Under the pieces are notes generated by a model. It was not told the DNA's origin. It was given only the letters and a program-made list of their open reading frames with translations, and searched no databases. Shown here piece after piece: positions 1 through 12,407 of a DNA stretch of 12,407 nucleotides. Source of the DNA: a virus (Duplodnaviria > Heunggongvirae > Uroviricota > Caudoviricetes); IMG/VR virus record IMGVR_UViG_2541047881_000002, positions 1 to 12,407 of that record. One strand, given 5' to 3'. Made by a program: the position numbers and the translations under genes. Positions within the stretch are counted from its first letter, which is position 1. Every line of letters begins with the position of its first letter.

Positions 1-3000
1 ATGCTGAAACGTCTGTTAAGTAAACTGACGGGAAACCGTCAGCAGATAGAACATCACCTAAAAAATCAGTACCAGGTTGAGGAAAACGGACTTAGCTTTC
101 CGCTATCGCTGGTTGATGATTCGCAGCTTTGGGCACTGGCATCCTGGCTAGAACAACTGGCTGAAGAAGACTATCTGATATCACTTACAGACCGGTGGTT
201 GTTGAGTTGGGACGCACTGTATCGCCTGCTGGAGGATGAGGAACATGCCAGCAGCCTGCCTCTTATCGGTGTACCTGACGTACTGCCTTTACGCGCAAGC
301 CTGAGTTCACGAGGAGCATTAAGCGATAGCGATTTTCGCGTCTGGATTGCTGAATGGGCTACGCTTCCAGCCCGCAAGCCGATCCGTTTCAGTCGTACCG
401 GTGCCATTTTAACCCATGAAAATCAGCAATACCTGTTATCGCGTGAAAACTGGGCACTCTTACAGGCAACAGAACAACTCAGTGCACAGAAAAATCAGAC
501 TCCTGGTGAAACCACTAACCAGTTGGGATGGGCCGCTATCCGCAAATGTGCGAAGCAAGCAGCCGCAAAATTTGATGATTATTTAGAAAAAACGCATGTC
601 GTCAAACCAACTTCATTGTCATTACGTCTGCGTAAAGCAACGGTTGCCGATACTGCTGTTATCGAAATTGAGCCCCATTTCGAGGACCAGCCTGCTAACT
701 GGCTAGGCAGTTTTGACAAAAACTCGCAGGTTCACGATAGCTACCGCATCCCTGGAGAGAATGGCGAACTCAGCCATGTCATTATCCCTCCCGAAGTGAA
801 AGAAGTCCTGAATTCAATACACTCGATTCCAGGCCGTCGAGTGGCCGGAAGCGAAGCGCTTTCCTTTGTTCGCAATCCTTATACCTTCCTGGGTGAAGAT
901 GCCGCCAGTGTTATTGCCCCTGAAGAACATGAACAGGCACTGTTTGATGCCAGGATTTTCTTTCATCATTTCAGGTTGATACCGCAACTGAATGCGGAAA
1001 ATAAGATCGCAGAAGTTACGCTGGTACTTGAGCCTGTTTCACCTGTTCCCCAGCCAGAAATCACTTTTGGGTTCTCAGCCCCCCGGGAGCTGGATAAATT
1101 CATACAGCAACTCGGTATTAGCGTCGCTGCACAGATGCCTGCCGGTTCATGGCAAGGTTACGAGCTGGAATTAAGTCAGTTCACTGAACAGCAGTGGCAC
1201 GATTGCCAGGCACTTCTAACTCGCTGGCAGCAAGAAATAGAAGGAAAAGAATTTAGCGATGTGCTGGATATTGCGAAGTATGGCGATCGCGTGATTGGCA
1301 TTGGTGAATTTGAAAAAATCTCCTCTCCCTGGCTGACCAAAGCGCAGAGTGAAAACTGGCTTCCAGATGACATCGATTTCTCCGCGTTTTCAGTCGAAAC
1401 ACTGTCTGGCTGGCAACCTGAAAACCTTCACCATTTCGATGAACTGCAGGAGAGAATTACTCAGGCAGAAGCTGTAGGTGAAACGCATATCACCGCACCA
1501 TGGAATGACAGCCAATTACCGTTGGATGCTGCTAAAACCTTCAGTAAGAACTGGGAAAAACAGCAAAGCACTGCAAATGAATCTCAAGGCAACGTTGCAG
1601 ATAAAACGGCCCGAGCCGTACTCAAAATTGAGCAGAATATTGAAGAAACGGCCTACATCAAACAGCGCCGCAATTCACTCCTCAATGCGCGTCATGCCGA
1701 GCCTGAAATTCCTCTGAGCCTTAAAGAGCATATCCGACTCAAAGACCATCAACGTGAAGGCGTAGCCTGGCTCCAGCAACTCTTCCTTCGTTCACCTGAG
1801 GAAACCGCAGGTTGCCTGCTGGCGGATGATATGGGGCTTGGGAAAACGCTGCAAATTCTGAGCTTCCTGGTATGGTTCATTGAAAAATTCCCGCAAGAAC
1901 CGCCAAGTCTCATTGTTGCTCCTGTCTCTCTTTTAGATAACTGGGAACGTGAACTGGACAATTTCTTCTATACCGCAGGAATACCGGTATTGAAATTGTA
2001 TGGCGAGACCATTAAAGCGGTGAAATATCCCAAACAGGCTATCCCTGCTCATCTGCAATCTCAGGGGATCAAAAACCTGCTTAAACCTGGCTGGCAGGGT
2101 GAGGCGAAAATCATCCTGACAACCTACGAAACGCTTCGCGACCAGGAGTTTTCTCTGGCACGCCAGCCGTGGTCCATTATGGTGTGCGACGAGGCACAAA
2201 AAATAAAAAACCCAGCTGCGTTAATCACACATGCGGCCAACGCGGTACAAGCCAGGTTTAAAGTGGCATGTACAGGAACACCTGTCGAAAACACACTTGT
2301 CGACCTGTGGAGCTTATTTGATTTTGCCCAGCCAGGATTGTTAGGGGCACTAAATGAATTTGGTAAACACTATGTTCGCCCCATCGAGAACGAAGATGGC
2401 CGCGATACGGAACGGTTGGAAAGCCTGCGAGCGCTGATAGAACCTCAGACTTTACGCCGAACCAAAGAAGAGGTTGCGCGTGATTTACCTCAGAAAATTG
2501 AAGTGGAAAGCTGCAAGCAATTGACGTTGTCTGGCGTGCAAAAACAGCTCTACCTTTCGTCCGTTGCAAATTGGCAACAACAGCAAGCACTGAGCGAAGG
2601 GATGCAGCAGGCCGGAACCGGTATGTTAGGTTTGTTACACCGACTGAAACTCATCTGTGCACACCCTGCAGTAGTTAATCCAGAACCACGTTTTCGTGAT
2701 AACTCACCCAAGCTTAACTGGCTGCTGAAAATACTCGCAGAACTAAAACACACCACGAAAGATAAGGTCATTATTTTTACGGAGCTTCGAGATTTACAGC
2801 GCGAACTTCAACATGCGATCCACCAAAAGTTTGGTTTCCGCCCTGTCATTATCAATGGTGATACCAGCACTAAAAGTCAAAGTCAAAACAGCCGCCAGCG
2901 CCTGATTGATGATTTTCAGGCTCAGCCTGGGTTTGGGGTGATTATTCTCTCTACGGTTGCCGTCGGATTCGGCGTTAACGTCCAGAAAGCCAATCATGTT

Positions 3001-3243
3001 ATTCATTTCACTCGCTGCTGGAACCCAGCCAAAGAAGATCAGGCAACAGACCGGGCGTACCGAATTGGGCAAACTAAAGATGTGTATGTCTATTACCCGA
3101 CGGTGAAGGACACTGAAATCACCACATTTGAAGAAACACTGGATGACCTTCTGCAGCGTCGACGTGCATTGGCCAGAGATATGCTCTGCGCTACTCCCGA
3201 TTTGAGTGGCGCGGATTTTGAGGCCATTTTGAAGGGGGCTTAA
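1..3243 (+). CDS. SNF2-family (Swi2/Snf2-type) helicase/ATPase, 1080 aa, with an uncharacterised ~560-aa N-terminal region
   Basis: Single uninterrupted ORF from ATG at 1 to TAA at 3241-3243. Translation shows SNF2 motifs: motif I LLADDMGLGKT (nt ~1819-1848), motif II MVCDEAQKIKN (DEAQ box), motif III TGTPVENTLVDLWSLFDF, and C-terminal motif VI QATDRAYRIGQ. Residues 1 to ~560 carry no motif I can recognise. Confidence 0.85.
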   Translation: MLKRLLSKLTGNRQQIEHHLKNQYQVEENGLSFPLSLVDDSQLWALASWLEQLAEEDYLISLTDRWLLSWDALYRLLEDEEHASSLPLIGVPDVLPLRASLSSRGALSDSDFRVWIAEWATLPARKPIRFSRTGAILTHENQQYLLSRENWALLQATEQLSAQKNQTPGETTNQLGWAAIRKCAKQAAAKFDDYLEKTHVVKPTSLSLRLRKATVADTAVIEIEPHFEDQPANWLGSFDKNSQVHDSYRIPGENGELSHVIIPPEVKEVLNSIHSIPGRRVAGSEALSFVRNPYTFLGEDAASVIAPEEHEQALFDARIFFHHFRLIPQLNAENKIAEVTLVLEPVSPVPQPEITFGFSAPRELDKFIQQLGISVAAQMPAGSWQGYELELSQFTEQQWHDCQALLTRWQQEIEGKEFSDVLDIAKYGDRVIGIGEFEKISSPWLTKAQSENWLPDDIDFSAFSVETLSGWQPENLHHFDELQERITQAEAVGETHITAPWNDSQLPLDAAKTFSKNWEKQQSTANESQGNVADKTARAVLKIEQNIEETAYIKQRRNSLLNARHAEPEIPLSLKEHIRLKDHQREGVAWLQQLFLRSPEETAGCLLADDMGLGKTLQILSFLVWFIEKFPQEPPSLIVAPVSLLDNWERELDNFFYTAGIPVLKLYGETIKAVKYPKQAIPAHLQSQGIKNLLKPGWQGEAKIILTTYETLRDQEFSLARQPWSIMVCDEAQKIKNPAALITHAANAVQARFKVACTGTPVENTLVDLWSLFDFAQPGLLGALNEFGKHYVRPIENEDGRDTERLESLRALIEPQTLRRTKEEVARDLPQKIEVESCKQLTLSGVQKQLYLSSVANWQQQQALSEGMQQAGTGMLGLLHRLKLICAHPAVVNPEPRFRDNSPKLNWLLKILAELKHTTKDKVIIFTELRDLQRELQHAIHQKFGFRPVIINGDTSTKSQSQNSRQRLIDDFQAQPGFGVIILSTVAVGFGVNVQKANHVIHFTRCWNPAKEDQATDRAYRIGQTKDVYVYYPTVKDTEITTFEETLDDLLQRRRALARDMLCATPDLSGADFEAILKGA

Positions 3244-3764: not shown

Positions 3765-4478
3765 CTACAGGAACGGTTTCAATAACATCGGATCAATGAT
3801 CCCCTCTGGAAAATCGTAAAGATGCTGACGCGCTGTCGTCTCCTTCAGTCCCGCTGCTTTAGCAAAATCGCTGACGGAGTAGCCTTCAGGCCACCAGCTC
3901 TGATAGTAAATATCAAAATACTGCCCCCACTCTGCGCTCATCGGGCGTCGTGATAGCTGTCGGGCAGCAGATTTCTGAGTCAGTTGATATTTCACAATAT
4001 ATTCACCAACGCTAAGACCATTCTCGACTTTTTCGCGCTGAAACTGGCGACGATGGTAAACCCAGAACAGCGCCCTAAGCGATGCGCCACCAGCTTTATG
4101 CAGCGCATTCCAGGCTCTGCGGTGCGGTATCCTGTAGCGTTGCGCGTATTCGGTTTGTGTAATGCCATGCAGAATCGCTTCACGACGATAATTTTGCTTG
4201 TGCCAGGCCCAGTCAATCTTCCAGCGGTCGCATCGCTCGCTGTAGTCCTGAGCTCTTTTCTGGCGGGCAACAGGCAACTTCAGAAAGTTTTCAAAGAGTG
4301 TATCCAGCGAGCACGCAACCGGATGGATATGCTGCGTTTGCAGACGTATCTCATTGGGCGTAAGTGGGCGATATTCGAGCCCCGTTAGACGTTCCAGCCG
4401 CCATTCATGATAGTTTTTTCGACGACGTCTATTCCCGGCATACTTCAAACGATACAGTGCCTGTTCAGCGTATGACAT
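3765..4478 (-). CDS. YagL/YfjJ-like island protein, 237 aa; C-terminal W/Y-rich domain paralogous to the C-terminus of the adjacent Rep-like protein
   Basis: ATG at 4476-4478 preceded by a strong SD (AAGGAG, 7-nt spacer); stop TAG at 3765-3767. C-terminus (SAEWGQYFDIYYQSWWPEGYSVSDFAKAAGLKETTARQHLYDFPEGI) aligns with the 315-aa protein (SPHWLRHFDRYYDNYWPCGVSVAQYCNWHDLNPSTARRYLCDYPPAV). A 14-bp overlap with the upstream gene suggests an operon. Family assignment is from recall, not a search. Confidence 0.65.
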   Translation of the reverse strand: MSYAEQALYRLKYAGNRRRRKNYHEWRLERLTGLEYRPLTPNEIRLQTQHIHPVACSLDTLFENFLKLPVARQKRAQDYSERCDRWKIDWAWHKQNYRREAILHGITQTEYAQRYRIPHRRAWNALHKAGGASLRALFWVYHRRQFQREKVENGLSVGEYIVKYQLTQKSAARQLSRRPMSAEWGQYFDIYYQSWWPEGYSVSDFAKAAGLKETTARQHLYDFPEGIIDPMLLKPFL

Positions 4479-5412
4479 ATTGAATCTCCTTTTGAAGCCA
4501 ACCCCTCAGGATGCCAGGTGAGATAACTGCTGGTGGATAATCGCAGAGATAACGCCGGGCTGTTGAAGGATTTAAATCGTGCCAATTACAGTACTGAGCG
4601 ACGCTGACTCCGCAGGGCCAGTAATTGTCGTAATAGCGATCGAAATGCCGTAGCCAGTGAGGAGATAGTTGAGGTTTTTCAGCTGCTTTTCCGCGCTGAT
4701 ACAGCTTCAGTAAACGCTGAATGCTGCGAATCTGGCTATTTGTTTCATAATCCAGAGAGTCAATCTCTGCGGGTTCATTATCACCGAGAAATAACGGGTC
4801 AAGCTTACCTGGCAGCGGACAGTAACGTTCGGCAGGTGGCTGGCATTGCTTGAGTTTGGCTGGAGTCCTGGGTTTAGGCTTTTGTTGCTTCAGTACTTTG
4901 TAGTGCTTGCGTCCGTACAACGGAATATGTTTTGCGATTCCGGTCTTAGTGGCGTATTTAGCGAAATAGCTCAACCTTAACAGAAGCTCCCCCAGGGTCT
5001 GCGAATCGCGCTTATGGACCATGTAGTATCCGTTTTTGGGAAACCAAACTTTCCCGTTAGTTGCCGAACTCCAGGTCTTCTCCACCAGCCCATTCAATAC
5101 CTTTGGTGTACGTATGTGGTTCCCGTCCACCATGAGCACACAGTGATAGTGCTGCGCTGTCGCTTTGTCATGCTCACGAACCCAGAATATATCGAAAAAA
5201 GACTTTGGATAACGAGCACGTAATACCTGGGCTAATTGCTGGCAGAAGTCCGAAATAACCTGATTGTCATCTGTATAGCTCTTGAGATGTAAATCATAGC
5301 GAACAGCCAGAAAACGCGAAGTCCGCAGATAGGTTTGATTCACCGTATCAAAAAGGGCTTCCATGATCCTGGAATCATACTCTCCCTCTGCATGAAGTAT
5401 CGGCCAGAACAC
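4465..5412 (-). CDS. YagK/YfjJ (inovirus Gp2-like) rolling-circle Rep-like protein with HUH motif, apparently 5'-truncated at the IS junction (possible pseudogene)
   Basis: The ORF has no ATG start: the first candidate is GTG at 5410-5412 with no SD, and the frame stays open for 32 more codons up to the IS end at 5509. Contains AQHYHCVLMVDG (HUH-like) and LSYFAKYATK (Y-x-x-K-Y, resembling the phiX174 gpA active-site motif YVAKYVNK as I recall it). Confidence 0.6.
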   Translation of the reverse strand: MFWPILHAEGEYDSRIMEALFDTVNQTYLRTSRFLAVRYDLHLKSYTDDNQVISDFCQQLAQVLRARYPKSFFDIFWVREHDKATAQHYHCVLMVDGNHIRTPKVLNGLVEKTWSSATNGKVWFPKNGYYMVHKRDSQTLGELLLRLSYFAKYATKTGIAKHIPLYGRKHYKVLKQQKPKPRTPAKLKQCQPPAERYCPLPGKLDPLFLGDNEPAEIDSLDYETNSQIRSIQRLLKLYQRGKAAEKPQLSPHWLRHFDRYYDNYWPCGVSVAQYCNWHDLNPSTARRYLCDYPPAVISPGILRGWLQKEIQYVIR

Positions 5413-5550
5413 TTCGTCATACAGAAAGTATCCTTGAGCATTAATCCACTGAGCTGCTTGCGAGGCCGGTATATTATTAATTACCGATGGTTTCTCGAAC
5501 TGATGATCTGAACCGCCCCGGGTTTCCTGGAGAGTGTTTTATCTGTGAAC

Positions 5551-6441
5551 TCAGGCTGCCAGATCATCGTTTCCGATGGAAGCATAATAAGCTTTTTCTG
5601 CTTCTGCCGGAGGAGTATGGCCCAGCCTTTCCAGCAATCGTCGATTGTTATACCAGTCCACCCACGTGAGTGTGGCCAGTTCCACTTCTGCACGGTTTTT
5701 CCAGCTCTTACGGTGTATTACCTCCGCTTTGTAAAGACCATTGATGCTCTCCGCCATCGCGTTGTCATACGAGTCGCCTGTACTTCCTGTTGATGCCAGT
5801 AATCCGGCTTCCTTAAGCCGCTGTGTGTAGGCCAGCGATACATACTGAGAACCTTTATCACTGTGATGGACCGTGCCGGACGGTCGACGGGCCCATAACG
5901 CCTGCTCCAGTGCATCCAGCACGAATGTCGTTTCCATGGACGATGAGACCCGCCACCCCACGATGTATCCGGCAAACACATCAATGATGAACGCCACATA
6001 GACGAAGCCCCGCCATGTGCTGACGTAAGTAAAATCAGCCACCCACAGCTGGTCAGGTCGTTCTGCCACGAACTGACGGTTTACGCGGTCGCCTGCGGCA
6101 ACGGCTTTCCGGCTGATGGTCGTACGGACCTTTTTACCCCGGAGAACACCGGCAAGTCCCATAACCGCCATGAGGCGCGCCACTGTACATCTGGCCACCC
6201 TGATTCCTTCCCGTAACAACTGACGCCAGACTTTACGCACACCGTACACCTGATGATTTTCATCGTATACGCGCTGTATCTCTCTCTTCAGCCAGTCATC
6301 GTGCTGCGCACGGGCACTGCGTTTATCCGGATGATGTCGCTGTTGCTGACAATGGTAATACGTTGACGGGGCAATATGCAGTTCGCTGCATACCGGTCCG
6401 ACCCCGTACTGCTCACGCAGCTTATCCAGCAGTGGCATCAT
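5551..6441 (-). CDS. IS3-family transposase OrfB (DDE catalytic core), 296 aa
   Basis: Translation carries the IS3-type DDE triad context (WVADFTYV ... HHSDKGSQY ... [11 protein letters not shown]). Begins ATGATG, overlapping the orfA stop in the -1 frame. Confidence 0.9.
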
Positions 6442-6449
6442 TTTTTCCA
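6438..6449 (-). other. Candidate programmed -1 ribosomal frameshift site at the orfA/orfB junction (CTGGAAAAAATGATG on the minus strand)
   Basis: A run of six A (6441-6446) immediately precedes the orfA stop TGA (6438-6440), with orfB in the -1 frame. IS3-family elements make OrfAB by -1 frameshifting; a canonical A-AAA-AAG heptamer is not present here, so the exact site is uncertain. Confidence 0.4.
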
Positions 6450-6764
6450 GAGGCGGTCGAACTCCGCCTTCGCAAAATAAGCGGAAGCCTGGCGAAGGAT
6501 ATCGTTACTGCGGCGCAGTTCACGATTTTCACGTTCCAGCTCTTTCAGACGCTGACGTTCAGCGCTGGTGAGCCCACCATCACCGCCCCCGGTATCCCGC
6601 TCATGCTGGCGAACCCAGACACGCAGAGTCTCCGGCGTACAGCCAATCTTTGGGGCAATGGAACAAATTGCCGCCCACTGTGAGTCATATTCATCCTGAC
6701 TTTCCAGAACCATACGGACTGCCCGTTGACGGACTTCGGGGGAAAAACGAGTATTTTTAGTCAT
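6438..6764 (-). CDS. IS3-family transposase OrfA (HTH and leucine-zipper-like region), 108 aa
   Basis: ATG at 6762-6764 (minus strand), 54 bp inside the left IR; ends ...RLWKK with TGA overlapping the orfB ATG. Coiled-coil-like [17 protein letters not shown] segment is typical of IS3 OrfA. Confidence 0.9.
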
Positions 6765-6847
6765 CCTGTTTACCTCTTTCTCAGGAAGTTTAGTCTCCAG
6801 GATTCCCGGGGCGGTTCACCTTGCTTCCGGCTGGTACCGTCCTTTTT

Positions 6848-6936
6848 ACAAAACAGAGAAGAGCATCACCGGACGACGGGCTCATAACCCAATCCATCCG
6901 GGCGGCAGTCACCGCAGGTGTTCTTCTCTGTTTTGT
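6848..6936. repeat. Perfect 15-bp inverted repeat (ACAAAACAGAGAAGA at 6848-6862, TCTTCTCTGTTTTGT at 6922-6936) enclosing a 59-bp GC-rich spacer
   Basis: Read directly; arms extend imperfectly (CATCACCGG / CACCTGCGG). Spacer contains GGGCTCATAACCC, an anticodon-stem-loop-like hairpin. Lies between the IS left end (6818) and the yfdP-like start (6985). Confidence 0.7.
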
Positions 6937-6984
6937 GGAGAAACTAACCGACCTTGCAGGGTCGATATGATGAGGAGCAGCAAA

Positions 6985-7347
6985 ATGGCTAGCGAACGCA
7001 GTACTGATGTGCAGGCATTTATCGGGGAGCTGGACGGCGGCGTATTTGAAACCAAAATCGGCGCAGTTCTCAGTGAAGTCGCTTCCGGTGTGATGAACAC
7101 GAAAACCAAAGGTAAGGTCTCGCTCAACCTGGAAATCGAACCGTTTGATGAGAACCGAGTGAAAATCAAACACAAACTCTCATATGTTCGCCCGACTAAC
7201 CGCGGGAAAATTTCCGAAGAAGACACCACCGAAACGCCGATGTATGTCAATCGCGGTGGTCGCCTGACTATTCTGCAGGAAGACCAGGGACAGTTACTGA
7301 CTCTTGCCGGTGAACCTGACGGAAAACTCCGCGCAGCAGGTCGTTAA
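6985..7347 (+). CDS. yfdP: YfdP-like prophage protein, 120 aa
   Basis: ATG at 6985 preceded by GAGGAG (6973-6978, 6-nt spacer); the track ORF start at 6967 lacks an SD. The 120-aa length matches K-12 CPS-53 YfdP as I recall it, and it is first in a five-gene series matching the yfdP-T lengths. Confidence 0.7.
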   Translation: MASERSTDVQAFIGELDGGVFETKIGAVLSEVASGVMNTKTKGKVSLNLEIEPFDENRVKIKHKLSYVRPTNRGKISEEDTTETPMYVNRGGRLTILQEDQGQLLTLAGEPDGKLRAAGR

Positions 7348-7412
7348 TATCGTTTTTAATTAACTGATTATTTATCTCATCACTGAATATCTTTATATAG
7401 TGAGGACTTATT

Positions 7413-8237
7413 ATGTCTCAGAACTTAGACGCAACCGCAATTAATCAAATCCATGCCCTTATTTCTGCTCAGGGTGTTAATGAAATTATCAGTAAGATTG
7501 GTGCCGATGCTGTGGCATTGCCTGAGAATTTCCGCATTCATGATCTGGAAAAATTTAATTTAAATCGCTTCCGTTTCCGTGGTGCGCTTTCCACTGCCAG
7601 CATCGATGACTTTACCCGTTATTCTAAAGATCTTGCAGATGAAGGCACCCGCTGCTTTATCGATGCTGATAATATGCGTGCCGTCAGTGTGCTTAACCTG
7701 GGTACTATTGATGAACCAGGTCACGCAGATAACACCGCCACACTCAAACTGAAAAAGACAGCACCGTTCTCTGCTCTGTTGTCTGTTAACGGCGAGCGTA
7801 ACTCCCAGAAGTCACTGGCAGAATGGATTGAAGACTGGGCCGACTATCTTGTGGGCTTTGATGCTAATGGTGACGCTATTCAGGCAACAAAAACGGCTGC
7901 GGCTGTCCGTAAAATCACGATTGAAGCAAACCAGACCGCTGATTTTGAAGATAATGACTTCAGCGGCAAACGCTCCCTGATGGAGTCTGTCGAAGCGAAG
8001 ACCAAAGACATTATGCCAGTGGCATTTGAATTTAAATGCGTTCCGTTTGAAGGTCTGAAAGAACGTCCGTTTAAATTACGCCTCAGTATTATCACTGGCG
8101 ATCGTCCTGTACTGGTTCTACGCATTATTCAGCTGGAGGCGGTGCAGGAAGAAATGGCTAACGAATTTCGTGATCTGCTTGTTGAGAAATTCAAGGACAG
8201 CAAAGTAGAAACCTTTATTGGTACTTTCACCGCCTGA
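7413..8237 (+). CDS. yfdQ: YfdQ-like prophage protein (DUF2303-type), 274 aa
   Basis: ATG at 7413 with SD GAGGA (7402-7406); stop TGA at 8235-8237. Length and position in the series match CPS-53 YfdQ (274 aa) from recall. Confidence 0.8.
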
Positions 8238-8249
8238 TTTCATTACTGC

Positions 8250-8271
8250 AAATGCCCCTGCGGGGGCATTT
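8250..8271 (+). terminator. GC-rich perfect hairpin (AAATGCCCC-tgcg-GGGGCATTT) 13 nt after the yfdQ-like stop; candidate partial intrinsic terminator or RNA-stability element
   Basis: 9-bp perfect stem with a 4-nt loop, read directly. Only a 3-T tail follows, so termination is probably partial. Confidence 0.4.
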
Positions 8272-8364
8272 ATGGAAACGTAATTTACTCAATAATCGCC
8301 GGATGGTGAGGGATTCTTTTTACCAGAATTCAGCGCGGTGCAGCGCATATACGTGGAGAACAAA

Positions 8365-8901
8365 ATGTCATTTATTAAAACTTTTTCCGGGAAGCATTTT
8401 TATTATGACAGGATAAATAAAGACGACATCGATATTAACGATATCGCGGTTTCCCTTTCAAATATCTGTCGCTTTGCCGGTCATCTTTCGCACTTCTACA
8501 GCGTCGCCCAACATGCGGTTCTTTGCAGCCAGCTGGTGCCGCAGGAATTTGCTTTTGAAGCGTTAATGCATGATGCAACAGAAGCGTATTGCCAGGACAT
8601 TCCCGCACCACTGAAACGCCTTCTTCCTGACTATAAACAAATGGAAGAAAAAATAGACGCCGTAATCCGTGAGAAATACGGGTTACCCCCAGTTATGAGT
8701 ACGCCCGTGAAATATGCCGATCTCATCATGCTGGCAACCGAACGCCGCGATCTCGGGCTTGATGATGGCTCTTTCTGGCCTGTACTGGAAGGTATCCCGG
8801 CAACAGAGATGTTCAACGTGATTCCACTGGCTCCGGGCCATGCCTACGGGATGTTTATGGAACGCTTTAACGAGTTATCGGAGTTACGCAAATGCGCATG
8901 A
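8365..8901 (+). CDS. yfdR: HD-domain metal-dependent phosphohydrolase, YfdR-like, 178 aa
   Basis: ATG at 8365 with SD GGAGAA 8 nt upstream; the track start at 8338 is in-frame but has no SD. HD-domain signature: H...HD...D pattern in YSVAQHAVLC ... LMHDATEAY. Stop TGA at 8899-8901 overlaps the next start. Confidence 0.8.
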   Translation: MSFIKTFSGKHFYYDRINKDDIDINDIAVSLSNICRFAGHLSHFYSVAQHAVLCSQLVPQEFAFEALMHDATEAYCQDIPAPLKRLLPDYKQMEEKIDAVIREKYGLPPVMSTPVKYADLIMLATERRDLGLDDGSFWPVLEGIPATEMFNVIPLAPGHAYGMFMERFNELSELRKCA

Positions 8902-9254
8902 ATGTTTTCGAAATGGAAGGGTTTCTTCGTGGGAGATGTGTACCGCGAGATCTGAAAGTAAATGAAACAGATGCTGAATACCTAGTGCGTAAATTCGATG
9001 CGCTTGAAGCTAAATGTGCAGCACAGGAAAACAAAGTAATACCAGTGTCAACTGAACTGCCACCAGCAAATGAAAGTGTTTTGTTATTCGATGCTAACGG
9101 AGAAGGCTGGCTAATTGGCTGGCGTTCTCTCTGGTACACCTGGGGACAAAAAGAAACCGGAGAATGGCAGTGGACATTTCAGGTCGGGGACCTTGAAAAC
9201 GTCAATATCACTCACTGGGCAGTAATGCCAAAAGCACCGGAGGCTGGAGCATAA
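8892..9254 (+). CDS. yfdS: YfdS-like prophage protein, 120 aa, Trp-rich C-terminus
   Basis: ATG at 8892 (alternative ATG at 8898 overlapping the upstream TGA as ATGA); length matches YfdS (120 aa) from recall. Confidence 0.7.
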   Translation: MRMNVFEMEGFLRGRCVPRDLKVNETDAEYLVRKFDALEAKCAAQENKVIPVSTELPPANESVLLFDANGEGWLIGWRSLWYTWGQKETGEWQWTFQVGDLENVNITHWAVMPKAPEAGA

Positions 9255-9559
9255 TGACCACTTTTACCGACAAAGAACTGATTAAAGAAATTAAAGAGCG
9301 TATCAGCAGCCTTGACGTGCGAGACGATATTGAGCGCCGTGCTTATGAAATCGCACTCCTATCTCTGGAAGTAGAACCAGATGAACGCGAAGCTTATGAA
9401 TTATTCATGGAAAAGCGTTTCGGTGACTTAGTAGATCGTCGGAGAGCAAAAAACGGCGATAACGAATACATGGCATGGGATATGACTCTCGGTTGGATCG
9501 TCTGGCAGCAACGAGCTGGTATCCATTTTTCAACAATGTCACAGCAAGAGGTGAAATAA
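9254..9559 (+). CDS. yfdT: YfdT-like prophage protein, 101 aa
   Basis: ATG at 9254 overlaps the upstream TAA (TAATG); its own stop TAA at 9557-9559 overlaps the next ATG (TAATG). Length matches YfdT (101 aa) from recall. Confidence 0.7.
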   Translation: MTTFTDKELIKEIKERISSLDVRDDIERRAYEIALLSLEVEPDEREAYELFMEKRFGDLVDRRRAKNGDNEYMAWDMTLGWIVWQQRAGIHFSTMSQQEVK

Positions 9560-9909
9560 TGGAGCCATACAGCCTCACACTCGATGAGGCCTGTCATTTT
9601 CTCAAGATATCCAGACCGACTGCCATTAACTGGATACGCACAGGGCGTCTTCAGGCAACACGCAAAGATCCCACTAAGAATAAATCTCCTTACCTCACAA
9701 CACGACAAGCCTGCATTGCGGCTCTTCAGTCTCCGCTGCATACTGTCCAGGTGAGCGCGGGTGATGGCATAACAGAGGAAAGAAAATGTCACTCTTCCGC
9801 AGAGGTGAAATATGGTACGCCAGTTTCACATTGCCGAACGGTAAAAGATTTAAACAGTCTCTTGGAACAAAGGACAAAAGGCAGGCGACAGAACTCCATG
9901 ACAAGCTAA
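9559..9909 (+). CDS. xis: Excisionase / AlpA-type HTH DNA-binding protein (Xis-like); 3' extent uncertain
   Basis: N-terminal [35 protein letters not shown] matches the excisionase-family HTH pattern (LTLDEA..FL.+SR.T+..WI+.G+L); SD AGAGGTGA upstream. The ORF runs to 9909, overlapping the integrase start by 124 nt in another frame. Confidence 0.65.
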
Positions 9910-10949
9910 AGGCTGAAGCATGGCGGGTCAGCAAACTTGGTGAAATACCTGATATAACGTTCGAGGAAGCGTGTGTCAGGTGGCTTGAAGAGAAAGCACA
10001 TAAAAAATCACTGGACGATGACAAAAGCCGGATCGGATTCTGGCTTCAACATTTCGCAGGAATGCAACTAAGAGACATTACTGAATCAAAAATTTATTCA
10101 GCAATGCAGAAAATGACGAACCGGCGTCATGAGGAAAACTGGAAACTCAGGGCAGAAGCATGCAGAAAAAAAGGGAAACCTGTTCCAGAATACACGCCAA
10201 AACCAGCGTCCGTTGCAACGAAGGCTACGCATCTTTCATTTATAAAGGCCCTACTAAGAGCCGCAGAGCGTGAATGGAAAATGCTGGATAAGGCACCAAT
10301 TATTAAAGTGCCCCAACCAAAGAATAAACGGATCCGCTGGCTGGAGCCCCATGAAGCACAAAGGCTGATTGATGAATGTCCGGAGCCATTAAAGTCTGTT
10401 GTTGAATTTGCACTGGCAACAGGCCTAAGACGCTCGAACATCATCAACCTTGAATGGCAACAAATAGATATGCAGCGCCGGGTGGCATGGATAAACCCGG
10501 AAGAGAGTAAATCAAACCGCGCAATTGGCGTTGCGCTGAATGATACTGCATGTCGCGTATTGAAAAAACAAATCGGGAATCATCACCGTTGGGTATTTGT
10601 GTACAAGGAAAGCTGTACCAAACCAGACGGAACGAAAGCGCCAACAGTCAGGAAGATGCGGTATGACGCAAACACAGCCTGGAAAGCGGCGCTGAGACGG
10701 GCTGGTATTGATGATTTCAGATTTCACGACTTGAGACACACCTGGGCAAGTTGGCTGGTTCAAGCCGGAGTCCCGTTGTCAGTGTTACAGGAAATGGGAG
10801 GCTGGGAGTCTATCGAAATGGTTCGTCGATATGCTCACCTTGCACCTAATCACCTTACCGAACACGCACGGCAAATAGACTCGATCCTGAACCCATCGGT
10901 CCCAAATTTGTCCCAGTCAAAAAATAAGGAAGGTACTAATGATGTGTAA
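9786..10949 (+). CDS. int: Phage-type tyrosine site-specific integrase (lambdoid / Rac IntR-like), 387 aa
   Basis: ATG at 9786 with SD GAGGA (7-nt spacer). Catalytic signature present: [10 protein letters not shown] (Arg), HDLRHTWAS (H-x-x-R), VRRYAHL (Tyr). Stop TAA at 10947-10949, 14 bp from the tRNA 3' end. Confidence 0.93.
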
Positions 10950-10990
10950 CTTATTGATTTAAATGGTGCCGATAATAGGAGTCGAACCTA
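10950..10990. other. Putative attL core of the integrated element, overlapping the 3' end of thrW
   Basis: The integrase stop is 14 bp from the tRNA 3' end and convergent with it, the usual geometry for tRNA-targeting tyrosine integrases. Exact core boundaries cannot be set without the matching att copy. Confidence 0.4.
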
Positions 10991-11039
10991 CGACCTTCGC
11001 ATTACGAATGCGCTGCTCTACCAACTGAGCTATATCGGC
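10964..11039 (-). tRNA. thrW: tRNA-Thr, anticodon CGU, 76 nt with encoded CCA
   Basis: Reverse complement of 10964-11039 reads GCCGATATAGCTCAGTTGGTAGAGCAGCGCATTCGTAATGCGAAGGTCGTAGGTTCGACTCCTATTATCGGCACCA: 7-bp acceptor stem, D-arm GCTC/GAGC, anticodon loop TTCGTAA (CGT), T-loop TTCGACT, 3' CCA. Position next to proA matches the E. coli proA-thrW arrangement. Confidence 0.93.
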
Positions 11040-11153: not shown

Positions 11154-12407
11154 TTACGCACGAATGGTGTAATCACCAATGCCGATCCACTTGTAAGTGG
11201 TCAGTGCTTCCAGCCCCATTGGGCCACGCGCGTGGAGTTTTTGTGTGCTTACCGCCACTTCCGCACCCAGTCCAAACTGGCCGCCGTCGGTAAAACGCGT
11301 AGAGGCGTTAACGTAAACAGCGGAAGAATCCACTTCGTTAACAAAACGCTGGGCGTTGCGCATATCGCGGGTCAGGATCGCATCGGAGTGTTGTGTGCCG
11401 TGTTCACGAATATGGGCGATGGCATCGTCAAGATCGCTGACGATTTTGACGTTCAAATCTAATGACAGAAACTCATCGTCATACTCTTCCGCTTTAACCG
11501 CCACCACCTTCGCGGGGCCTGTCTGCAACTGCGCCAGCGCAGCTGCATCTGCGTGTAATGTCACGCCGCTTTCCGCCATTTGTTTGCTTAATGCGGGCAG
11601 GAAGCTATCTGCTATGTTTTTATTTACCAGCAACGTTTCAACCGTATTACATGTGCTCGGACGCTGGGTTTTCGCGTTGACGATTACTTTCAGGGCTTCA
11701 GCGATCTCTGCACTTTCATCAACGTAAATATGGCATACGCCTATACCACCAGTGATCACCGGGATCGTCGACTGTTCACGGCACAGTTTATGCAAACCAG
11801 CGCCACCACGCGGGATCAGCATGTCGATGTATTTATCCATACGCAGCATTTCACTGACCAGCGCACGGTCAGGATTATCAATCGCCTGCACGGCACCCGC
11901 CGGTAAGCCACAGGATTTCAGGGCGTCCTGAATCACCGCCACCGTTGCCGCGTTAGTGCGACAGGTTTCTTTGCCACCACGCAGGATCACCGCATTACCG
12001 GTTTTCAGGCACAGCGAAGCGACATCAACCGTCACGTTCGGGCGCGCTTCATAAATCACGCCAATAACCCCCAGCGGTACGCGACGACGCTCAAGACGCA
12101 GGCCGCTGTCCAGTACGCCGCCATCGATTACCTGCCCCACCGGATCGGCGAGGTTACACACCTGGCGTACATCGTCGGCAATGCCTTTCAGCCGTGCGGG
12201 CGTCAGTGCCAGACGGTCAAGCATCGCTTCGCTAAGGCCATTGGCTCGCGCGTCAGCAACATCCTGGGCGTTAGCGTTGAGGATGATTTCGCTTTGTGCT
12301 TCCAGTTCATCGGCGATTTTTTCCAGCACGCGATTTTTTTCGCGGCTGGAGAGTTGCGCTAATTTATACGAGGCTTGCTTCGCGGCAATGCCCATTTGTT
12401 CCAGCAT
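11154..12407 (-). CDS. proA: Gamma-glutamyl phosphate reductase (glutamate-5-semialdehyde dehydrogenase), complete 417 aa
   Basis: ORF from ATG at 12405-12407 to TAA at 11154-11156; translation [30 protein letters not shown]... matches E. coli ProA as I recall it, with the expected thrW gene immediately downstream. Confidence 0.97.

What the first reader, a model, noticed from the sequence alone, without database searches (positions are those of the whole stretch)
1..3243. Stand-alone SNF2-family helicase with a large unassigned N-terminal half, carried as island cargo
Seen in sequence: a complete 1080-aa ORF whose C-terminal ~520 aa carry all canonical SNF2 motifs (DDMGLGKT, DEAQ, TGTPVEN..LWSL, QATDRAYRIGQ), while the N-terminal ~560 aa have no motif I recognise. 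It is convergent with island replication-type genes and separated from them by a 520-bp non-coding gap. Established knowledge: SNF2-like helicases are components of anti-phage systems such as DISARM (DrmD), and defence genes concentrate in integrase-associated islands at tRNA loci. Inference: this is a candidate single-gene or partial defence / anti-mobile-element effector. Any partner genes would lie upstream of position 1, outside the window.
Basis: partly seen in the sequence, partly recalled or inferred. Interest (0 to 1): 0.65.

Follow-up and report, generated by a model that had tools for sequence, protein, structure and literature searches.

The report
ZorD, effector of type I Zorya
The 1080-residue gene is zorD, the last gene of the already described four-gene Zorya type I anti-phage system of E. 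coli; its "unassigned" N-terminal half is the known, structurally solved ZorD regulatory domain, so the finding is real but ordinary.

Summary
It is not stand-alone and not unassigned. It passes NCBI's equivalog model for type I Zorya ZorD (1822.7 bits, cut-off 1500, matching residues 1-1033). It is about 96% identical over its full length to EcZorD, whose cryo-EM structures are PDB 8QY7 and 8QYC. It differs by one residue from ZorD of E. coli E24377A.

The window starts exactly at the zorD ATG. A public contig identical to all 12,407 bases carries intact zorA, zorB and zorC directly upstream, and the zorC stop overlaps the zorD start (TAATG). Ten more loci examined, with zorD identical or one residue different, also carry zorABC.

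Published work on the ~96%-identical protein names residues 1-502 as an N-terminal domain that packs on the SNF2 C-terminal domain in a toroid. Full-length ZorD was inactive on DNA, which the authors read as autoinhibition. The C-terminal domain alone degrades DNA, and ZorCD without ZorAB gives no defence. My fold search of the N-terminal half found only ZorD itself.

Verdict: already known, low interest. The defence guess was right; the DISARM analogy and the "single gene" reading were not.

The parts
1..3243 (+). zorD, complete coding sequence (1080 aa plus stop), fourth gene of a type I Zorya operon. The window starts at its ATG, which overlaps the zorC stop (TAATG) in the identical contig.
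   Evidence: ORF. NCBIfam NF041790 anti-phage_ZorD equivalog 1822.7 bits, cut-off 1500. PADLOC ZorD PDLC00632 1574 bits over the full length. PDB 8qy7/8qyc 2383.6 bits over 1-1080. RefSeq annotation zorD, WP_000919795.1, 100% identical.
1..1506 (+). ZorD N-terminal domain (residues 1-502). It is ZorD-specific and has no Pfam family. In the published structure it packs against the C-terminal domain in a toroid, and the authors read the inactive full-length protein as autoinhibited.
1507..3240 (+). ZorD C-terminal domain (residues 503-1080): the SNF2-type ATPase, which the published work reports to be the DNA-degrading part.
   Evidence: Pfam SNF2-rel_dom 583-890 and Helicase_C 904-1023. Nuclease activity of the isolated CTD of the ~96%-identical protein is reported in PMC11946911.
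1825..1848 (+). SNF2 motif I / Walker A, DDMGLGKT (residues 609-616, K615).
1951..1953 (+). Codon for Glu651, the residue that recognises the ATP ribose. [quoted passage not shown]
   Evidence: E651 is present. Mutant data in PMC11946911.
2188..2199 (+). DEAQ box (residues 730-733), SNF2 motif II. D730A/E731A abolished both defence and nuclease activity in the published protein.
   Evidence: Mutant data in PMC11946911.
3244..3764 (.). 521-base spacer between the convergent zorD and the 237-aa island gene. The gene spacing is the same in all the annotated loci examined. No feature was found in it.
   Evidence: Same gene spacing.

Best explanation
The ORF is zorD, the SNF2-type effector of a complete, chromosomal type I Zorya (zorA1-zorB1-zorC-zorD) anti-phage operon in the thrW-linked accessory region of E. 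coli.

The mechanism below was shown experimentally for the ~96%-identical NCTC9026 system and is inferred here by near-identity:
1. ZorA5B2 is an inner-membrane, proton-driven rotary motor that senses envelope perturbation when a phage injects.
2. Its long cytoplasmic ZorA tail passes on the signal and recruits ZorC (an EH-signature DNA-binding protein) and ZorD.
3. In resting ZorD the N-terminal domain (1-502) packs on the SNF2 C-terminal domain (503-1080), and the protein does not cut DNA. The authors interpret this as autoinhibition by the N-terminal domain.
4. Once that inhibition is relieved, the C-terminal domain degrades the incoming phage DNA. This activity needs the ATP site (E651, D730, E731).
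5. The infected cell survives: defence is direct, not abortive.

How the ZorA tail relieves the autoinhibition is not known.
For: Family membership:
- The NCBIfam ZorD equivalog is passed: 1822.7 bits against 1500, covering residues 1-1033.
- A PADLOC ZorD model matches over the full length.
- PDB 8qy7/8qyc, deposited as Zorya ZorD, aligns over 1-1080. I counted 34 differences by hand in the first ~957 aligned positions printed, which is about 96% identity.

Operon context:
- L011 is 100% identical to the whole window.
- L011 has intact zorA (729 aa; NF041794 1437 bits, cut-off 750), zorB (246 aa; NF041788 449, cut-off 400) and zorC (560 aa; NF041789 859, cut-off 490) directly upstream.
- The zorC stop overlaps the zorD ATG.
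- From about 420 bases inside the neighbouring hsdM gene remnant to the zorD start, L011 differs from E24377A at 2 bases, and the 362 bases between hsdM and zorA are identical.
- All 10 loci holding this exact protein have intact zorABCD.
- All 24 full-length rows sampled across 86 E. coli genomes have zorC abutting.

Catalytic residues: K615, E651 and D730/E731 are conserved.

Mechanism: PMC11946911; summarised independently in PMC12904381.
Against: - Nothing here tests activity of this particular allele. About 4% of residues differ from the studied protein, and most of the differences I counted fall in the N-terminal domain.
- The island has been hit by IS elements on both sides: IS1 plus a truncated hsdM upstream, and an IS3-family element downstream. 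Expression in the source strain is therefore assumed, not shown.
- The E. coli form has no recognisable nuclease domain, whereas longer homologues carry Mrr_cat or HNH. The chemical basis of the reported nuclease activity is not explained by the sequence.
Confidence: 0.96

Rival explanations
1. A stand-alone or orphan SNF2 defence gene (DISARM DrmD-like, or a single-gene system) that works without partners.
For: Within the window no partner gene is visible, because the window starts at the ATG. Weak DrmD hits fall on the helicase core.
Against: DrmD equivalogs score 75.6 and 57.3 bits against cut-offs of 950 and 610. The identical contig and every related locus examined have zorABC upstream. 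ZorCD without ZorAB gives no defence in the published system.
Confidence: 0.01
2. DpdE, the SNF2-like helicase of the Dpd 7-deazaguanine DNA-modification/restriction system, as the top PADLOC label suggests.
For: The best PADLOC-DB hit is a model labelled DpdE (PDLC02854, 2484.9 bits, full length), and several other DpdE-labelled models hit the helicase half.
Against: The NCBIfam DpdE equivalog gives 29.3 bits against a cut-off of 500 and matches only residues 916-1025. The neighbours are zorA, zorB and zorC, which pass their own equivalog cut-offs. Nothing in the annotated neighbourhoods is named as a dpd gene. The label looks like a naming problem in that PADLOC model.
Confidence: 0.01
3. 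A housekeeping RapA-like RNA-polymerase-associated SNF2 ATPase with a known N-terminal domain.
For: None beyond the shared helicase C-terminal lobe (RapA model 29.4 bits, residues 896-1040).
Against: The RapA cut-off is 576 bits. A full-length copy is present in only 86 of 5,426 complete E. coli genomes, so it is accessory, not core. The N-terminal-half model matches no solved structure other than ZorD.
Confidence: 0.005
4. A genuine zorD in an operon that is silent or decaying in this strain because of the surrounding IS activity.
For: IS1 and a truncated hsdM lie upstream of zorA in L011. An IS3-family element with mismatched flanks and a deleted prophage lie downstream.
Against: All four zor ORFs are intact. 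The zorA upstream region is identical to that of E24377A.
Confidence: 0.03

Closest known systems
EcZorD of E. coli NCTC9026 type I Zorya (PDB 8QY7 apo, 8QYC with ATP-gamma-S; Hu et al., Nature 2024, PMC11946911)
   Same: Same length (1080 aa) and alignable end to end at about 96% identity. Same domain limits (N502/D503). Same catalytic residues (K615, E651, D730, E731). Same operon order, zorABCD.
   Different: About 34 substitutions in the first ~957 residues by my hand count, more of them in the N-terminal domain. No functional data exist for this allele.
ZorD of E. coli E24377A (WP_000919796.1), type I Zorya at thrW
   Same: One amino-acid difference (G278S). Same zorA1-zorB1-zorC upstream genes, with ZorB and ZorC identical and ZorA differing by 1 residue. 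Same downstream 237-aa and YagK/YfjJ genes, and the same thrW-proA locus. From my own memory, not checked here, this strain's system is the type I Zorya first tested by Doron et al. 2018.
   Different: E24377A keeps the full type I restriction-modification genes upstream. Its island end (AlpA-like gene and a 285-aa gene) abuts thrW directly, with no IS3-family element or SfIV-like remnant.
Long-form ZorD homologues with a C-terminal Mrr_cat or HNH nuclease (the PADLOC description 'SWI2/SNF2 helicase, Mrr-like nuclease')
   Same: Same N-terminal domain followed by an SNF2 ATPase.
   Different: They carry an extra C-terminal nuclease domain of 120 or more residues. The window's protein ends shortly after Helicase_C and has none.
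DISARM DrmD and BREX BrxH SNF2-type helicases
   Same: They share the SNF2/helicase core and belong to anti-phage systems.
   Different: No similarity outside the helicase core. Scores are far below the family cut-offs. The partner genes are different.

Membership tests
ZorD (type I Zorya effector) | Passes the curated equivalog model for ZorD over the full length, N-terminal half included | tested here: met
   NF041790 scores 1822.7 bits against a cut-off of 1500, residues 1-1033 on profile 1-1035. PADLOC ZorD PDLC00632 scores 1574 bits over 1-1077.
ZorD (type I Zorya effector) | C-terminal SNF2-type ATPase with an intact Walker A and DEAQ box | tested here: met
   Pfam SNF2-rel_dom 583-890 and Helicase_C 904-1023. 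GKT at 614-616, DEAQ at 730-733 and E651 present.
ZorD (type I Zorya effector) | ZorD-type N-terminal domain with the fold seen in the solved structure | tested here: met
Type I Zorya system | Gene order zorA-zorB-zorC-zorD, with each partner passing its own model | tested here: met
   This lies outside the window but in a contig identical to it (L011). ZorA1 1437.2 bits (cut-off 750), ZorB1 449 (cut-off 400), ZorC 859 (cut-off 490). The ORFs are intact and zorC and zorD overlap.
Type I Zorya system | Protects against phage, and needs all four genes | not testable with these tools
   Shown for the ~96%-identical NCTC9026 system (PMC11946911). Not tested for this allele.
DISARM DrmD | Passes a DrmD equivalog model and sits beside drmA/B/C/MI-type genes | tested here: not met
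   75.6 bits against 950 and 57.3 against 610. The neighbours are zor genes.
Dpd system DpdE | Passes the DpdE equivalog model and sits in a dpd cluster | tested here: not met
   29.3 bits against 500. Nothing in the annotated neighbourhoods is named as a dpd gene. The PADLOC label 'DpdE' on model PDLC02854 conflicts with this.
RapA (RNA polymerase-associated SNF2 ATPase) | Passes the RapA equivalog model and belongs to the core genome | tested here: not met
   29.4 bits against 576. A full-length copy is present in 86 of 5,426 complete E. coli genomes.

The most novel reading that the evidence does not exclude
The 1080-aa short form of ZorD, which unlike many homologues has no Mrr or HNH domain, may degrade DNA through an unconventional active site inside the SNF2 core. 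Its N-terminal domain, which has no structural relative among solved structures other than ZorD itself, may be a dedicated receiver that the rotating ZorA tail displaces. Both ideas are already raised in, or implied by, the published work. Nothing in this window adds to them beyond a natural set of about 34 substitutions, enriched in the N-terminal domain.
Probability: 0.3. Interest if true: 0.3.

Novelty: already known. Interest (0 to 1): 0.07.

Why it matters
It matters little as a discovery. The gene, its system, its structure and a working mechanism are published, and RefSeq already names identical copies zorD. The useful outcomes are three:
1. A clean example of how cutting a window at a gene boundary makes an operon member look like an orphan.
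2. A warning that PADLOC-DB's best-scoring model for this protein carries a DpdE label.
3. A small record of how the thrW hotspot was remodelled in this strain, where a Zorya island was fused to an SfIV-like prophage remnant through an IS3-family element.

Tried and rejected
- DISARM/DrmD, DpdE, RapA and BREX BrxH assignments: tested with curated models and rejected on score and on gene context.
- A known domain in the N-terminal half:
  - Pfam at E<=0.1 found nothing.
  - A PDB sequence search at E<=10 found only ZorD.
- A functional element in the 521-base gap: no Rfam family and no notable promoter or terminator match.
- The whole window in 5,426 complete E. coli genomes: best coverage 56%. 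It was found instead through the exact-protein look-up.
- The original Zorya paper (Doron et al. 2018, PMC6387622) is not held. A search for 'Zorya' plus 'E24377A' found nothing. The statement that E24377A was the strain first tested therefore rests on my memory only.
- The published text I read gives no written outcome for the N-terminal-domain and C-terminal-domain deletion mutants (only in Fig. 4i), so I make no claim about them.
Full report
**1. Observation**

The window holds an ORF at 1..3243 on the + strand, with an ATG start, 1080 codons and a single terminal stop. DDMGLGKT is at residue 609, DEAQ at 730, TGTPVEN at 758, LWSL at 769 and QATDRAYRIGQ at 1014.

Pfam finds SNF2-rel_dom at 583-890 (E 4e-59) and Helicase_C at 904-1023 (E 4e-17). 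It finds nothing in residues 1-577.

The next gene starts 521 bases downstream and is convergent (3765-4478, - strand). It is followed by a YagK/YfjJ / REP_ORF2-G2P-type gene at 4465-5412. tRNA-Thr(CGT) is at 10964-11039 (-) and proA at 11154-12407 (-), which is the thrW locus. The descriptive part of the finding is therefore correct.

**2. Identity**

Curated family models settle what the gene is:
- The protein passes NCBI's equivalog model for the type I Zorya protein ZorD (NF041790). It scores 1822.7 bits against a cut-off of 1500, and the match runs from residue 1 to 1033, so it includes the 'unassigned' half.
- PADLOC's ZorD model PDLC00632 matches residues 1-1077 at 1574 bits.
- The sequence aligns end to end (2383.6 bits) with PDB chains 8qy7 and 8qyc, listed as Zorya ZorD in apo form and with ATP-gamma-S. 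I counted 34 differences by hand in the first ~957 aligned positions printed, which is about 96% identity.
- At the DNA level the ORF is 100% identical to genes annotated zorD in many complete E. coli genomes. At the protein level it is one residue (G278S) from ZorD of strain E24377A.

**3. It is not stand-alone**

The window begins exactly on the zorD start codon. In the annotated genomes, zorA1, zorB1 and zorC lie immediately upstream, and the zorC stop overlaps the zorD ATG (…AAATAATGCTG).

A look-up of contigs that encode this exact protein returned ten loci. One of them is L011 (NCBI assembly GCA_000460355.1, contig KE701683.1). It is identical to the window over all 12,407 bases, so it is the source arrangement or an exact copy of it.

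L011 has intact upstream genes, each of which passes its own equivalog cut-off:

| Gene | Length | NCBIfam score | Cut-off |
|---|---|---|---|
| zorA | 729 aa | 1437.2 | 750 |
| zorB | 246 aa | 449 | 400 |
| zorC | 560 aa (EH signature) | 859 | 490 |

From about 420 bases inside the neighbouring hsdM gene remnant to the zorD start, L011 differs from E24377A at only 2 bases, and the 362 bases between hsdM and zorA are identical. All ten loci have intact zorABCD.

Among 5,426 complete E. coli genomes, 86 hold a full-length copy. All 24 full-length rows in an even sample down the ranking show zorC abutting.

**4. The N-terminal half**

The paper that solved the structure is PMC11946911. It reports the following:
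- Residues 1-502 form the N-terminal domain. This domain contacts the C-terminal domain (503-1080) to form a toroid.
- Full-length ZorD does not cut DNA. The isolated C-terminal domain degrades plasmid and phage DNA.
- D730A/E731A or E651A abolish that activity.
- The authors conclude that full-length ZorD is autoinhibited.

The boundary residues N502/D503 and the residues K615, E651, D730 and E731 are all present in the window's protein.

- A PDB sequence search with residues 1-560 at E<=10 finds only ZorD.
- An exhaustive HMMER search of 1.84 billion cluster representatives with residues 1-520 finds 373 relatives at E<=1e-3. Those of near full length (about 1030-1320 aa) match at their N-terminus.
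- The eight I scanned against Pfam all carry an SNF2 domain downstream. Four add a C-terminal Mrr_cat domain and one an HNH domain. The E. coli-length forms do not.

The N-terminal half is therefore a ZorD-specific module with a known structure. It is not a RapA-like or other housekeeping domain.

**5. Mechanism (from the literature, transferred by near-identity)**

1. ZorA5B2 is a proton-driven inner-membrane rotary motor with a cytoplasmic tail of about 70 nm.
2. The proposed trigger is envelope perturbation at phage injection, which lets ZorB anchor to peptidoglycan so that the motor turns.
3. The ZorA tail is needed to recruit ZorD, and ZorC is also recruited to the activated ZorAB complexes.
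4. ZorC binds DNA and ZorD degrades it.
5. Defence is direct rather than abortive.
6. ZorC and ZorD without ZorAB do not protect.
7. Plasmid conjugation and transformation are not blocked.

These points come, and the same account is given in PMC12904381. For the window, gene identity, operon completeness and conservation of the catalytic residues are shown here. Activity of this allele is inferred. How autoinhibition is relieved is not known.

**6. Rivals**

| Rival | Score vs cut-off | Other evidence |
|---|---|---|
| DISARM DrmD | 75.6 / 950 and 57.3 / 610 | neighbours are zor genes |
| DpdE | 29.3 / 500 | nothing in the annotated neighbourhoods is named as a dpd gene |
| RapA | 29.4 / 576 | full-length copy in only 1.6% of complete genomes |

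PADLOC-DB's single best hit is a model labelled DpdE (PDLC02854, 2484.9 bits, full length). I read this as a labelling problem in that model. A silent or decaying operon cannot be excluded by sequence, but all four ORFs and the zorA upstream region are intact.

**7. Surroundings**

An IS3-family element of 1310 bases occupies 5509-6818. It has terminal inverted repeats starting TGAACCGCCCCGGG, orfA and orfB on the - strand, and an ALIL frameshift pseudoknot (Rfam, 121.5 bits). It truncates the YagK/YfjJ gene to 315 aa, against 355 aa in E24377A.

Strain 2017.15.02CC (L001) has the same element at the same left junction, with a 3-base duplication (ATC) on both sides. E24377A has the empty site. 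In the window the right flank is unrelated DNA.

That DNA, 6819-11000, is 99.6% identical to the int-xis-early region of Shigella serotype-converting phage SfIV, and 99.0% identical to SfV. It ends with xis (9475-9909) and int (9786-10949) against thrW.

My inference is that a prophage integrated at thrW next to the Zorya island. An IS-associated deletion then removed the island's end and most of the prophage. The integrase therefore does not belong to the Zorya island.

No complete E. coli genome in the collection has this exact arrangement; the best coverage is 56%.

**8. Verdict**

Novelty: already known. Interest: low.

Noticed in passing
window 5509-6818: A 1310-base IS3-family insertion sequence (orfA 6438-6764, orfB 5551-6441, both on the - strand; ALIL frameshift pseudoknot 6367-6483) truncates the YagK/YfjJ-type gene. 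Its flanks (ATC on the left, CCT on the right) are not a target-site duplication. The same element in strain 2017.15.02CC (L001) has ATC on both sides. This indicates an IS-associated deletion that joined the Zorya island to prophage DNA.
   Followed up: yes
window 6819-10963: Remnant of an SfIV/SfV-like (Shigella serotype-converting) prophage, 99.6% identical to SfIV. It holds a yfdP-like gene, DUF2303, a yfdR-like gene, DUF551, a 101-aa ORF, xis and int, and it abuts tRNA-Thr(CGT). The integrase beside thrW belongs to this remnant, not to the Zorya island.
   Followed up: yes
whole window; L011 10001-22407: None of 5,426 complete E. coli genomes contains the whole window (best 56%). Draft assembly GCA_000460355.1, contig KE701683.1, matches all 12,407 bases exactly.
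   Followed up: yes
window 1-3243 (protein level): PADLOC-DB's best-scoring model for this ZorD is labelled DpdE (PDLC02854, 2484.9 bits, full length), ahead of the ZorD models. The NCBIfam DpdE model scores only 29.3 bits against a cut-off of 500. This is probably a mislabelled or over-inclusive PADLOC model.
   Followed up: partly
window 3765-4478 (-) and 4465-5412 (-): The 237-aa hypothetical protein and the YagK/YfjJ-type protein share a C-terminal module of about 58 residues (38% identity, E 2e-12). Both modules give weak hits to the N-terminal ~40 positions of a PHROG 'terminase' profile, which would be consistent with a small DNA-binding motif (my guess, untested).
   Followed up: no
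homologues P0022, P0024, P0027, P0046, P0106 compared with window 1-3243: ZorD homologues of about 1220-1320 aa carry a C-terminal Mrr_cat or HNH nuclease domain. The 1080-aa E. coli form has none, although its C-terminal domain is reported to degrade DNA. The catalytic basis is not evident from the sequence (PMC11946911).
   Followed up: partly
L011 1-5378, L002 1-7016, L004-L013 upstream regions: The Zorya operon sits back to back with a type I restriction-modification cluster (hsdR, DUF4268, hsdS, hsdM). In the window's own arrangement this cluster is cut down to an hsdM fragment by IS1. Other strains have a reverse transcriptase gene, GmrSD or P4-like primase genes nearby. thrW is therefore a variable defence hotspot.
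   Followed up: no
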